A stretch of 64,000 bases of DNA from the human T2T-CHM13v2.0 reference genome, Homo sapiens, in the NCBI RefSeq assembly GCF_009914755.1, contig NC_060947.1; one strand, 5' to 3'. Positions 41,883-64,000 of this stretch are shown here, piece after piece; the stretch's first letter is position 1, and every line of letters begins with the position of its first letter. The notes beneath the pieces are model-generated. The model was not told the DNA's origin, ran no database searches, and saw only the letters and a list, made by a program, of their open reading frames with translations. A program made the translations under genes and the position numbers.

Positions 41883-44800
41883 TCCACTCTAGTTAACAGC
41901 ATTCTGATCAAGTCCACAGATATGAATGAGGGCCATAAAATAAATCAGATTTATCTATGAGAAAAAGAAGATGTAGAAAATACCAAATCTAAACAACAGA
42001 GAGAACATAGTCTAGAAAAAGAAAAGTGAATAGTCTCCGATCCAACATACATGTTACTGAGTGTCAGAGGAAAGAATAAAGAGGGCAGAACAGAAAAAAA
42101 AACTATAAATAATGGCTGAAAACTTGCCAGATTTGGCAAAAGACATAAAACTACAGATTCAAGAAACCAACTGAACTCCAAATAAAAAAACAAAAATAAT
42201 CCCCAGCAAGACACATCATAATCACACTTCTGAAAAATAAAGACAATGAAAGCATATTGGTAATAATGAGATAAATGACATCTTACTTGCAGGGACAAAC
42301 AATTTGAATGACACATATTTTTCATAATAAATTATGGAGACCAGAAGGAAGTGACAGTATTTTTCAAGTGCTAAAAGAAATGAACTGTCAATCAAGATTC
42401 CTGTATTCAGTGAAAATACACTTCAGAAATCAAGGGAAAATTGAGATTTTCACATGAAGGAAAACTAAGAGAATTTGTTGCCAGCAGACCTACCCTAAAA
42501 GAATGACTAAAGGAAGCTCTCTATACAGCAAGGAAACAATAAAAGAAGAAATATCGAACTTCAGGAAGAAGAAAAAAATGGAGAAAAAATATGGATAAAT
42601 ACAATAGGCTTTCCTTCTCATTTTTATTTTTCTGATTATGTTTTATATTTGAAGCAAGAACTATGGCATTGTTTGATGTGGTTCTAAACGTACACTGTAG
42701 TAATTCATAGTAAGGTGGGGAAAAGAAATAGAAGAAAAAACAGAGAACAAACAAAATGAAAAGTAAATAAGCATACATAGCCCTGACATAATAATAATTA
42801 CATTAATTATAAATAATCTAAGTACACCAATTAAAAGACAGATAGTGAAAGGCTGGATTAATAAACACTACTTAACCATAAGCTATCTACAAAAACAACT
42901 CATGTAAATTAAAACACTATAGTCAAGCTTAAAATGGAAGATTGGAAAAACATCCATCATAGTAAAATTAATCTAAGGAAAGTATGAATGGCTATATTAA
43001 TATCAGACAAATTAGACTTCAGAGTAAATACAATTACCAAAAACATACAGGGACACTATGTAATAATAGAAGGGTCCATCCACCAAGAAGACATGGATCT
43101 TAAATGTACATGCATTAAACAACAGAGCTGCAAAATATGTAAAGCAAAATCTTTCAAAACTAAAATGAGAAATAGACCAATCCACAATTATACTTGTACA
43201 CTTCAACACTCATCCTTCAACAATTGTTACAACAACTAGACTGAAAGTCAGCAAGAATTTAGAATTTTACAGCACAATCAATCAACAGTATCTAATGGAT
43301 ATATATAGAACACACCACCCAGCAACAGCAGAATATATATTCCAAATACATATTATTTTTAAGGTCCCATGGAACATTCCTTAAATTAAACCATATCTAG
43401 GGCCATAAAGCAAACCTCGACAAATCTGAGAGAACTGAAATCATACAGAGTGTGCTCTCCAATGACAAATCAAATCAAACTAGAAAATGAACAAGAAATT
43501 TTTCAAACCCTTGGAATCAAAACAAGACACTTCAAAATAATCTATTAAAGAGGATGTTTGAAGGAAATCTAAAAATACATTGAACTGAATGAAAAGGAAA
43601 ACACAATATATTTATATCTGTGAGATATGGCTAATGAAATACTGACAGATGAATGTATAGCAACAAGTACTTACGTTTGCAAAAAGGCAGCCTCTAACCA
43701 ATAATATAAGTCCTACCTCAAGAACCTAGGAAAAGAAGAGCAAAATAAACACAAGGTAAGCAGATGGAAATAAACATAAAAGCATAAATAAATAAAACTG
43801 AAAACAGATAAACAATAGAAAAAATCTGTGAAACGAAGGCCTGGTTCTTTGAAAGATCAATAAAATTGACAAATCTCTAGCAAGACTGAAAAAATAAAGA
43901 GAGAGAAGACAAAACTTACAAATATCAGGAATGAAATAGGGAATATCACTGTAGACTGCAGGCATCAAAGGTATAATAAGAGAATGCTATGAACAGACTT
44001 ACATACTTAGATGAAATGGACCAATTCCTCAAAAAATTAAAATACCACAACTCCTTCAATATGGAATAGAGAATTTGAATAACCCTATAAACTGTCAAAT
44101 AAATTGAATTCTTAGTTTTAAAGTGTCCATAAAGAAATATCCAGACCTAAATGGTTTTACAGCAGAATTCTACCAAGCACTTGAAGAATTAACACGTTTT
44201 TTACAATATCTTGCAGAAAATAGAGGCTAGTATTCTGAAGCTACTATTACCCTGATACCCAAACCAGACAAAGGCAGTAAAAAATAAAAACTACAGAAAA
44301 TATCCCTTATGAAAACAGAGGTGGAGGGTATTCCAAGATGGCCAAATAGGAACAGTTCCAGGCCGCAGCTCCCAACGGGATCAATGTAGAGGATGGGTAA
44401 TTTCTGCATTTCCAACTGAGGTACCAGGTTCATCTCATTGGGACTGGTTGGACACTGGGTGCAGCCCATGGAGGGCAAGCCAAAGCAGCACGAGGTATCA
44501 CCTCACCCAGGGAGTGCAAGTGTTGGGGGATTTCCCTTTCCTAGCCAAGGGAAGCCATGACAGACTTCCTGGAAAAATGGGACACTCCCACTCAAATACG
44601 GTGCTGTTCCCAAGGTCTTAGCAACTGGCACACAAGGTGATTCTCTCCCTTGCCTAACTCGGCAGCTCCCAGGCCAACAGAGTCTTACTACTGTTAGCAC
44701 AGCAGTCTGAGATCCATCTGTGAGACAGCAGCCTGTCTGGGGGAGGGGTGTCCACAATTCCTAAGGCTTCAGTAGGTAAACAAAGCAGCCAGGAAGCTCG

Positions 44801-45355
44801 AACTGGGCAGAGCCCACCTCTGCTCAACAAGGCCTACAGACTCTAGACTCCACCTCTGTGGGCAGGGCATAGCTGAACAAAAGCCAGCAGACAACTTCTG
44901 AAGACTTAAATGTCCCTGTCTGACAGCACTGAAGAGAGCAGTGGTTCTCCCAGCATGGTGTTTGAGCTCTGAGAATGGACAGACTGCCTCCTCAAGTAGG
45001 TCCCTGACCCCGTGTAGCCTAACTGGGAGTCACCTCCCAGTAGGGGCTGACAGACACCTCATATAGGTAGCTGCCCCTCTGGGAAGAAGCTTCCAGAAGA
45101 AGGATTGGGCAGCAATATTTGCTGTTCTGCAATATTTGCTGTTCTGCAGCCTCCACTGGTGATACCAAGGCAAACAGGGTCTGGAGTGAAACTCCAGCAA
45201 ACTCCAACAGACCTGCAGCTGAGGGACCTGACTGTTAGAAGGAAAACTAACAAACAGAAAGGGATAGCATCAACATCAACAAAAAGGTCACTTATAGCAA
45301 AACCCCATCTGTGAGTCACCAACATCAAAGACCAAAGGTAGATAAAACTACAAAG

Positions 45356-61500: not shown

Positions 61501-64000
61501 TTTTATGTCTCCGTCTCTTGCAGTTCTGCTCTGATCTTAGTTATTTCTTGCCTTCTGCTAGCTTTTGAATTTGTTTGCTCCTGCTTCTCTAGATCTCTTC
61601 ATTGTGATGTTAGGGTGTCAATTTTCAATCTTTCCTGCTTTCTCTTGTGGACATTTAGTGCTATAAATTTCCCTCTACACACTGCTTTAAATGTGTCTCA
61701 GAGATTCTGGTACGTTGCGTCTTTATCCTCATTGATTTCAAAGAACATCTTTCTCTCTGCTATCATTTCATTATTTACCCAGTAGTCATTCAGGAGCACA
61801 TTGTTCAGTTTCCATGTAGTTGTGTGGTTTTGAGTGAGTTTCTTAATCCTGAGTTCTAATTTGACTGCACTGTGGTCTGAGAGACAGTTTGTTGTCATTT
61901 TTGTTCTTTTCATTTGCTGAGGAGTGCTTTACTTCCAATTATGTGGTCAATTTTAGAATAAGTGTGATGTGGTGCTGAGAAGAATGTATATTCTGTTGAT
62001 TTGGGTTGGAGAGTTCTGTAGATGTCTATTAGGTCTGTTTGTTGCAGAGCTGAGTTCAGTTTCTGGATATCCTTGTTAACCTTCTGTCTCATTGATCTGT
62101 CTAAAATTGACAGTGGGGTGTTAAAGTCTCCCATTATTATTGTGTGGGAGTCTAAGTCTCTTTGTAGGTTTCTAAGGACTTGCTTTTTGAATCTTGGTGC
62201 TCCTGTACTGGGTGCATATATATTTAGGATAGTTAGCTCTTCTTGTTGAATTGATCTCTTTATCATTATGTAATAACCTTATTTGTCTTTTTGATCTTTG
62301 TTGGTTTAAAGTCTGTTTTATCAGAGACTAGGATTGCAACCCCTGCTTTTCTTTTGCTTTCCATTTGCTTGGTAGATCTTCCTCCATCCTTTTATTTTGA
62401 GCTTATGTGCATCTTTCCCCGTGAGATGAGTCTCCTGATACAGCACACTGATGGGTCCTGACTCTTTATCCAATTTGCAAGTCTGTATCTTTTAATTGGA
62501 GCATTTAGCCCATTTACATTAAAGTTAATATTGTTATGTGTGAATTTGATCCTGTCATTATGATGTTAGCTGGTTATTTTGCCTGTAAATTGATGCAGTT
62601 TCTTCATAGCCTCAATGGTCTTTACAATTTGGCCTGTTTTTACAGTGTCTGGTACCCGTTGTTTCTTTCCATGTTTAGTGCTTCCTTCAGGAGCTCTTTT
62701 AGAGCAGGCCTGGTGGTGACAAAATCTCTCAGCATTTGCTTGCCTGTAAAGGATTTTATTTCTCCTTCACTTATGAAGCTTAGTTTGGCCGGATATGAAA
62801 TTTTGGGTTGCAAATTGTTTTCTTTAAGAATGTTGAATATTGGCCCCCTACTCTCTTCTGTCTTGTTGGGTTTCTGCTGAGAGATTCGCTGTTAGTCTGA
62901 TGGGCTTCCCTTTGTGGGTAACTCGACCTTTCTCTCTTGCTGCCCTTAACAGTTTTTCCTTCATTTCAACCTTGGTGAATCTGACAGTTATGTGTCTTGG
63001 GGTTGCTCTTCCTGAGGATTATCTTTGTGGTGTTCTCCATATTTCCTGAATTTGAATGTTGGCCTGCATTGCTATGTTAGGGAAGTTCTCCTGGAAAATA
63101 TCCTTAAGAGTGTTTTCCAACTAGGTTCCATTCTCCCCATCACTTTCAGGTACACCAATTAAATGCACATTTGGTCTTTTCACATAGTCCCATATTACTT
63201 GGAGGCTTTGTTCATTTCTTTTTACTCTTTTTTCTCTAACCTTGTCTTCTCACTTTATTTTATTAATTTGGTCTTCAATCACTGATACCCTTTCTTCCAC
63301 TTGATCGAATTGGCTATTGAAGCTTGTGCATGCATCACAACATTCTTGTGCCATGGTTTTCAGCTCCATCAGGTCATGTAAGGTCTTCTGTACACTGTTT
63401 ATTCTAGTTAGCCATTCACCTAATCTTTTTTTTTTAAGGTTTTTAGCTTCCTTGTGATGGGTTCAAACATCCTCCTTTAGCTTGGAGAAGTTTGTTATTA
63501 TTACTGACCTTCTGAAGCCTACTTCTGTCAACTCATCAAAGTCATTCTCCATCCCACTTTGTTCTGTTGCTGGTGAGGAGCTGTGATCCTGTGGAGGAGA
63601 AGAGGTGCTTGGATTTTTAGAATTTTCAGCTTTTCTGCTCTGGTTTCCCCCCATCTTTGTGTTTTTATCTACCTTTAGTCTTTGATGTTGGTGACTCACA
63701 GATGGGGTTTTGCTATAAGTGACCTTTTTGTTGATATTGATACTATTCCTTTCTGTTTGTTAGTTTTCCTTCTAACAATCAGGTCCCTCAGCTGCAGGTC
63801 TGTTGGAGTTTGCTGGAGTTTCACTCCAGACCCTGTTTGCCTTGGTATCACCAGCAGAGGCTGCAGAACAGTAAATATTGCAGAACAGCAAATATTGCTG
63901 CCTGATCCTTCTTCTGGAAGCTTCTTCCTAGAGGGGCAGCTGCCTATATGGGGCATCTATCAGCCTCTATTGGTTGGTGTCTCCCAGTTAGGCTACATGG
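58512..64000 (-). mobile_element. L1PA6-like element, probably full length (5'UTR runs off the window)
   Basis: Poly(T) at 58512, 3'UTR, ORF2 fragments (58725-62266), frameshifted ORF1, 5'UTR to the window end. Confidence 0.93.

What the first reader, a model, noticed from the sequence alone, without database searches (positions are those of the whole stretch)
44320..64000. Inverted L1PA6-like pair ~9 kb apart shares private mutations, including the same nonsense codon: gene conversion between inverted repeats
Seen in sequence: the + copy (44320-49624) and the - copy (58512-64000) both carry ORF2 ...ATTCAGTTAGGAAAT-TAG (IQLGN*; 48521-48523 and 60485-60487). They share further variants absent from the other L1s in the window: GGAACGTTTCTC, AAAGCCACAGC, AAAACCCGGAAG (NPEAF), TACCTGGGAATCC, GGGCATAGG, ACCATAATG, ATCACTAAA, TTCCACCATT, ATACACTGG, and 5'UTR GGTCACTTATAGCAAAACC and GTGAGTCACC. 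An identical run of more than 100 bp lies at ~48940-49052 versus ~59080-59192, while other stretches clearly differ. The left copy keeps its own TSD inside a collinear L1MC host, and the flanks are unrelated, so this is not a segmental duplication. Established: L1 cis-preference makes a shared stop codon from an active source unlikely, and close inverted repeats undergo conversion and recurrent NAHR inversion. Inference: patchy arm-to-arm homogenisation has occurred, and the intervening ~8.9 kb (with the LTR10 enhancer) may be invertible. This haplotype shows the ancestral orientation.
Basis: partly seen in the sequence, partly recalled or inferred. Interest (0 to 1): 0.75.

Follow-up and report, generated by a model that had tools for sequence, protein, structure and literature searches.

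The report
Neighbouring L1 copies traded DNA patches
Two dead L1 jumping-gene copies that face each other 9 kb apart on the human X share rare mutation sets in patches, most likely because DNA repair copied short stretches from one to the other millions of years ago; no inversion of the DNA between them is listed in the two catalogues checked.

Summary
Observation confirmed. Copy A (+, 44320-49624; 876-bp internal deletion) and copy B (-, 58510 to ~64693, full length) are separate insertions with intact target-site duplications, ~91% identical. Both carry the ORF2 TAG. The 18-mer around it occurs only in these two copies genome-wide, a 35-mer near the ORF1 start has no third match within 3 mismatches, and they share 27 outgroup-absent non-CpG variants against at most 7 for 405 other pairs. 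A dispersed sub-lineage is refuted. Sharing is patchy: in tracts A-B divergence is 0.2-0.6 of that to unrelated copies, between tracts 0.96-1.26. Best reading: several old non-allelic gene-conversion tracts, about 5-17 My old if the copies are L1PA6. Corrections: the stop alone recurs in 33 other copies, the 114-bp run is unremarkable (p=0.12), and no inversion is listed here in two T2T callsets (44 and 65 samples). Three other inverted L1 neighbour pairs show similar signs, so this looks like one case of a general process already described for neighbouring Alus.

The parts
44320..49624 (+). Copy A: L1PA-type element with 5'UTR, open ORF1 (45356-46381), broken ORF2, 876-bp internal deletion at 48753/48754, poly(A)
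44311..44319 (+). 5' target-site duplication of A (9 bp)
49625..49633 (+). 3' target-site duplication of A; matches A's own 5' TSD, so the spacer is in its original orientation
58510..64000 (-). Copy B: full-length L1PA-type element, continues outside the window to ~64693 (5' TSD ~64694-64705)
58498..58509 (-). 3' target-site duplication of B (12 bp)
45151..45335 (+). Tract T1 (partner 63675-63859): 5 outgroup-absent shared variants, non-CpG divergence 3/167; ratio to unrelated copies 0.19
45921..46480 (+). Weak tract T2 (partner 62523-63083): 4 outgroup-absent shared variants, ratio 0.76
46896..47115 (+). Tract T3 (partner 61893-62111): 6/205 non-CpG differences, ratio 0.41
48301..49100 (+). 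Tract T4 on both sides of A's deletion (partners 60255-60707 and 59032-59378): ratios 0.63 and 0.36; holds the shared stop and the 114-bp run
48521..48523 (+). Shared ORF2 TAG in A, six codons before the FADD motif
60485..60487 (-). Shared ORF2 TAG in B
47116..48300 (+). Longest unconverted stretch (partner 60708-61892): A and B no closer than unrelated copies, ratio 1.16
49634..58497 (.). 8.9-kb spacer: rest of A's older L1 host, ERV-like fragment, RefSeq enhancer 56135-56648; not listed as inverted in two catalogues
   Evidence: hub annotation

Best explanation
Two L1 copies of one sub-lineage inserted separately, tail to tail 8.9 kb apart, and then likely exchanged several short patches by non-allelic gene conversion that left the flanks and spacer in place. 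Shown: separate insertion, unswapped TSDs, shared variant sets not found elsewhere, and sharing confined to patches. Inferred: a double-strand break in one copy was repaired from the nearby homologous copy (fold-back within the chromatid or via the sister), copying tracts of ~0.2 to possibly 1.7 kb; T4 lies on both sides of A's deletion, so the deletion likely came later. Tracts have since diverged 2-5%, i.e. about 0.2-0.6 of the elements' age (about 5-17 My if L1PA6 is ~27 My old; wide error). Donor direction cannot be told. At ~91% identity the pair is now likely a poor substrate for inversion.
For: Exact 18-mer with three rare alleles: 2 of 2 genome matches; 35-mer of T1: no third match within 3 mismatches; 27-mer of T4: 3 exact matches, 2 are the pair. 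27 outgroup-absent shared non-CpG variants vs max 7, mean 1.7 in 405 other pairs; 22 remain after adding 20 near copies for the 3' part. Non-uniform along the element: chi-square on 500-column bins p=0.0007 and 0.0003, and 0.010 and 0.002 after collapsing adjacent variants. Divergence ratio 0.19-0.63 in T1, T3, T4 vs 0.96-1.26 in five stretches between tracts. A and B are sisters with support 93-100 in 6 of 9 segment trees and not sisters in 3. Distance <10 kb on a sex chromosome fits the Alu pattern (PMC6598467 section 4). Other inverted neighbours look alike.
Against: Tract borders were drawn after seeing the data. The runs test loses significance when adjacent variants are collapsed (p=0.08 and 0.64), and 700-column bins give p=0.088 and 0.024. 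A two-state HMM finds only two broad low and two high blocks, not four tracts. The 1.1-kb 'unconverted' segment still places A and B as sisters (support 93) and holds 3 shared variants. The outgroup is small (27 long copies plus 20 partial ones) and not the true nearest set (39 of 41,727 and 40 of 53,293 candidates scored). In T4, 6% of pairs among the near copies are as close as A-B. No shared indel was found. No ape orthologues could be examined.
Confidence: 0.83

Rival explanations
1. One whole-element copying event: A is a local daughter of B (or one copy was overwritten end to end once), and the two then diverged independently.
For: Shared rare variants occur from 44884 to 49416; overall A-B divergence (9.1%) is below every A- or B-outgroup value (min 9.4 and 9.7%); runs test weak after collapsing.
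Against: Predicts a ratio below 1 everywhere; five stretches totalling ~2.96 kb have 0.96-1.26; 0 shared of 37 private events in 44319-44870; each copy has its own TSD; a source with this stop would need ORF2 in trans (established L1 cis preference).
Confidence: 0.07
2. The tracts are the scars of crossovers: the spacer flipped and flipped back in the past, each event leaving a conversion patch.
For: Inverted L1 pairs do flank inversions (22 cases; bioRxiv 2021.12.20.472354 passages); an even number of flips restores the TSD pairing seen.
Against: Needs an even number of events; no inverted haplotype in 44 and 65 samples; conversion without crossover is the simpler outcome.
Confidence: 0.07
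3. Both copies come from a rare source element that already carried these variants (sub-lineage signature).
For: A and B agree at almost all of 93 lineage-diagnostic columns; several named variants recur in other copies.
Against: The variant sets have no or one further carrier in 3.1 Gb; two sole daughters landing 9 kb apart is very unlikely; between tracts they are as distant as unrelated copies.
Confidence: 0.02

Closest known systems
Non-allelic gene conversion between neighbouring Alu elements (Aleshin and Zhi 2010, seen only as cited in PMC6598467 section 4 and PMC8230782 passages; the paper itself was not held)
   Same: Shared non-diagnostic mutations between copies under 10 kb apart, on a sex chromosome, mosaic pattern.
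   Different: Here 5-6 kb L1 copies in inverted orientation, with several tracts of 0.2 kb or more in one pair; the passages read name Alu, LTR and Ty/Tf2 elements, not L1.
L1-flanked balanced inversions (bioRxiv 10.1101/2021.12.20.472354; PMC9675761; passages)
   Same: Inverted L1 pair, spacer of a few kb (median 5.6 kb there, 8.9 kb here), identity just over 90%.
   Different: Those pairs have median identity 97%; this pair ~91%, has unswapped TSDs and no inversion call.
Arm-to-arm conversion in X and Y palindromes (recalled)
   Same: Inverted repeats homogenised across a spacer.
   Different: Arms here are two independent transposon insertions at ~91%, not a duplication at >99%; the exchange is old and partial.

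Membership tests
Non-allelic gene conversion between TE copies | Copies are separate insertions, homology confined to the element | tested here: met
   Own TSDs, unrelated flanks, collinear host
Non-allelic gene conversion between TE copies | Shared derived variants not carried by dispersed copies | tested here: met
   single variants do recur
Non-allelic gene conversion between TE copies | Sharing confined to tracts | tested here: met
   Bin chi-square p=0.0003-0.01 at 400-500 columns; ratios; runs test not significant after collapsing
Non-allelic gene conversion between TE copies | One-way transfer shown against orthologues of other species or haplotypes | not testable with these tools
   No relatives of this genome are held (header)
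L1-flanked polymorphic inversion | Inverted L1 pair of high identity (>90%, median 97%) | tested here: inconclusive
   Inverted yes; 89.9% and 93.9% by BLAST against the published range
L1-flanked polymorphic inversion | Inverted haplotype exists (swapped TSDs or a catalogue call) | tested here: not met
   TSDs unswapped; no call in PMC10150506 Table S1 or PMC12350169 Table 37
Inverted segmental duplication | Homology extends into the flanks | tested here: not met
L1PA6 subfamily | Best match to the L1PA6 model among subfamily models | not testable with these tools
Non-CpG divergence ~7-9% from lineage-matched copies fits an old L1PA family

The most novel reading that the evidence does not exclude
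Neighbouring L1PA copies, inverted pairs above all, routinely swap tracts across the human genome, and this can be read straight from T2T sequence as rare alleles that sit in close pairs. Among 263 listed carriers of three rare alleles, 7 adjacent pairs (6 distinct) lay under 25 kb apart against 0.28 expected for uniform spread; three inverted pairs checked are bounded at the L1 3' end and two have identical runs of 233 and 278 bp. If so, neighbour conversion biases L1 age estimates, keeps pairs fit for inversion longer, and copies new factor-binding motifs between copies (T1 put an AP-1 heptamer in both copies here).
Probability: 0.55. Interest if true: 0.55.

Novelty: new member of a known kind. 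Interest (0 to 1): 0.36.

Why it matters
The locus itself has no gene within 100 kb and no known variant; its value is as a clean fossil of conversion between two independently inserted L1s, with tracts that can be mapped and dated. It shows that two dead copies can share a disabling mutation without common descent of that mutation, which affects subfamily assignment and dating of L1s. The co-location test gives a simple genome-wide measure of L1-L1 conversion, for which a five-phrase search of the library found no direct study (most subscription papers are not searched).

Tried and rejected
Identical-run length as proof of recent conversion: p=0.03 over 4597 columns, p=0.12 within T4: rejected. 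The stop codon alone as a private marker: 33 other copies: rejected. Variants inside the 114-bp run as private: 22 other exact copies of the 40-mer: rejected. Shared indels: none. HMM segmentation: coarse, partly follows regional mutation rate. Conversion with the third long L1 at ~7100-13700: shares 8 variants with A and 3 with B, about what an older subfamily gives by chance: not pursued. BLAST search for nearest copies scored only 39 and 40 candidates and did not return the partner copy in either case, so it is a sample, not a ranking. Two of three acrocentric duplicate loci (L016, L017) were dropped from the outgroup from then on. Ape inversion tables (PMC12058530) were too large to read; PMC13629690 supplements gave no usable chrX rows; the PMC12350158 supplement was cut when stored and gave no hit here: none of the three counts as a test. 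Khan 2006 and Aleshin and Zhi 2010 were not held. The exact AP-1 heptamer is absent from the annotated enhancer, so the LTR10 label stays unverified.
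Full report
1. What is there. Copy A (+, 44320-49624) and copy B (-, 58510 to ~64693, read from L003) are L1PA-type elements facing tail to tail across 8.9 kb. BLAST gives 89.9% over 4447 bp and 93.9% over 874 bp; A lacks the 876 bp between. Each has its own target-site duplication on both sides (A 9 bp, B 12 bp). A interrupts an older L1 whose ORF2 continues collinearly, and A's and B's flanks share no homology. So these are two insertions, not a duplication. A single inversion by crossover inside the L1s would pair A's 5' TSD with B's 3' TSD; that is not seen, so the spacer is in its original orientation or has flipped an even number of times.

2. Are the shared variants private? The genome pattern scan gives whole counts. 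The 18-mer holding the stop matches 2 places, both in this pair. The control 30-mer with two ambiguous positions and one mismatch matches 7,504 places; 35 match exactly with TAG: 33 elsewhere, of which 2 share the upstream T and 2 the upstream G, none both. So the stop alone is a recurrent mutation and the three-allele set is private. A 35-mer in T1 has no third match within 3 mismatches. A 27-mer in T4 has 3 exact matches, one on C2. In an alignment with 27 long copies (29 fetched, 2 acrocentric duplicates dropped), A and B share 27 non-CpG alleles absent from all others; the other 405 pairs share at most 7, mean 1.7. Adding 20 copies near B for the 3' part leaves 22. A and B also agree at nearly all 93 lineage-diagnostic columns: same sub-lineage, with private sharing on top.

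3. Is the sharing patchy? One whole-element copying event would make each private mutation shared with the same probability everywhere. Label permutation rejects that with 500-column bins (p=0.0007 and 0.0003 at two thresholds; 0.010 and 0.002 after collapsing variants within 10 bp) and 400-column bins (0.008, <0.001), less so with 700-column bins (0.088, 0.024); the runs test gives 0.009 and 0.016 raw but 0.08 and 0.64 collapsed. Non-CpG A-B divergence relative to divergence from reference copies is 0.19 (T1, 3/167), 0.41 (T3, 6/205), 0.63 and 0.36 (T4, 19/388 and 8/311), 0.27 (a 40-bp patch), 0.76 (T2), 0.70 (3' end), and 1.26, 0.96, 1.02, 1.06, 1.16 in the stretches between (borders drawn after the fact). 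Segment trees make A and B sisters in 6 of 9 segments, one of them the long 'unconverted' stretch, which counts against a clean split. An HMM resolves only four broad blocks.

4. Age and mechanism. The tracts are not identical: 2-5% non-CpG divergence, and three small indels lie in T4. The 114-bp run is what such a tract gives by chance (p=0.12). Inferred mechanism: break repair of one copy templated on the other, without crossover. T4 flanks A's deletion on both sides, so one tract of up to ~1.7 kb of B, followed by the deletion, is the simplest reading. Direction is unknown.

5. Inversion. PMC10150506 Table S1 (CHM13 coordinates, 44 sample columns; chrX rows 15-41 read) goes from 104.71 to 110.96 Mb with nothing here. 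PMC12350169 Table 37 (65 samples) has consecutive rows at 104.70 and 110.96 Mb and no ID chrX-107 (file cut when stored, this sheet present). L1 pairs that flank inversions have median identity 97.2% (21 of 22 over 90%; bioRxiv 2021.12.20.472354 passages) and 97.1% (PMC9675761 passages). Rare or somatic inversion is not excluded. Ape inversion supplements could not be read and may bear on past flips.

6. Is it general? In one search carriers of one rare allele lay in close pairs. I repeated the test with two alleles private to B among the aligned copies (100 of 137 and 89 of 89 rows listed). Pairs under 25 kb: 2 among 74 carriers (75 was used in the sum), 2 among 100, 3 among 89; 7 hits, 6 distinct pairs, against 0.28 for uniform spread (p=0.0002 with threefold clustering, 0.065 with tenfold). 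Common-allele copies in the 65 listed C1 rows show no clustering at 25 kb (2 vs 1.8) and twofold at 100 kb (13 vs 6.8). The 25-kb cut was chosen after seeing the data. One pair lies in an X cluster at 71.3-71.6 Mb that is probably a segmental duplication, and one same-strand pair on C1 was not examined. Three inverted pairs were fetched: homology ends at the L1 3' end in all three (5' ends not checked), with identical runs of 233, 278 and 86 bp. Seven neighbour pairs share 9 further rare alleles, 48 non-neighbour pairs 15. This is a lead on small numbers.

7. Relation to what is known. Conversion between TE copies is described, elevated under 10 kb and on sex chromosomes for Alu (PMC6598467 section 4 read; PMC8230782 passages). 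A search for five phrases naming L1 gene conversion found one paper, and there only a citation of Burton 1991; broader searches (listings only) showed no report of this locus. PMC2603318 and PMC3961182 were seen as passages. The library lacks most subscription papers, so this is not proof of absence.

8. Verdict. Real feature; conversion is the best explanation (0.83); old, partial and probably finished; not a known inversion. New member of a known kind. Interest 0.36; the genome-wide reading would be worth 0.55 at odds of 0.55.

Noticed in passing
window 45312-45318 (+) and 63692-63698: The shared T1 variants make a perfect AP-1-type heptamer (motif recalled) in both copies: 2 of 8 such sites in the window, where 12.9 are expected by chance. 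No evidence of function; it illustrates motif copying by conversion.
   Followed up: partly
L088 (G000:C7:154479700-154485500): Inverted pair of 1.9-kb L1 pieces 2 kb apart: 5.1% diverged overall, patches of 0-2 differences per 100 bp beside 12-15 per 100 at the 3' end, 233-bp identical run; a stronger, likely younger case than this finding.
   Followed up: partly
L074/L075 and L082/L083 (G000:C5 ~81.52 and 81.54 Mb): Inverted L1 pair found twice by independent rare alleles; 278-bp identical run, 3' ends 8.6% diverged, homology stops at the L1 end. No matching number in the PMC10150506 supplements.
   Followed up: partly
L084-L087 (G000:C23 ~61.52 and 61.53 Mb): Head-to-head L1 pair 11 kb apart sharing a rare allele; 9.3% diverged, longest run 86 bp: weak sign.
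   Followed up: partly
window 45356-46381 (+): Copy A keeps an open ORF1 of 341 codons, while B's is broken; plausible by chance.
   Followed up: no
window 48753/48754: A's 876-bp deletion joins at a 3-bp microhomology, with shared variants on both sides.
   Followed up: partly
window 54147-54632 (-): 161-codon ORF that looks like the end of an ERV pol (integrase C-terminus; resemblance recalled) in the spacer, near the tandem-repeat stretch 56360-56810 under the RefSeq enhancer.
   Followed up: no
window 18200-25534 and 7234-13642: Another tail-to-tail L1 pair ~4.5 kb apart at 82% identity; the - copy seems to hold a younger 3' L1 piece at 19027-19704. Not tested for conversion.
   Followed up: no
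L015, L016, L017: One L1 copy present on C21, C22 and C13 at ~0.2% divergence: acrocentric duplications.
   Followed up: no
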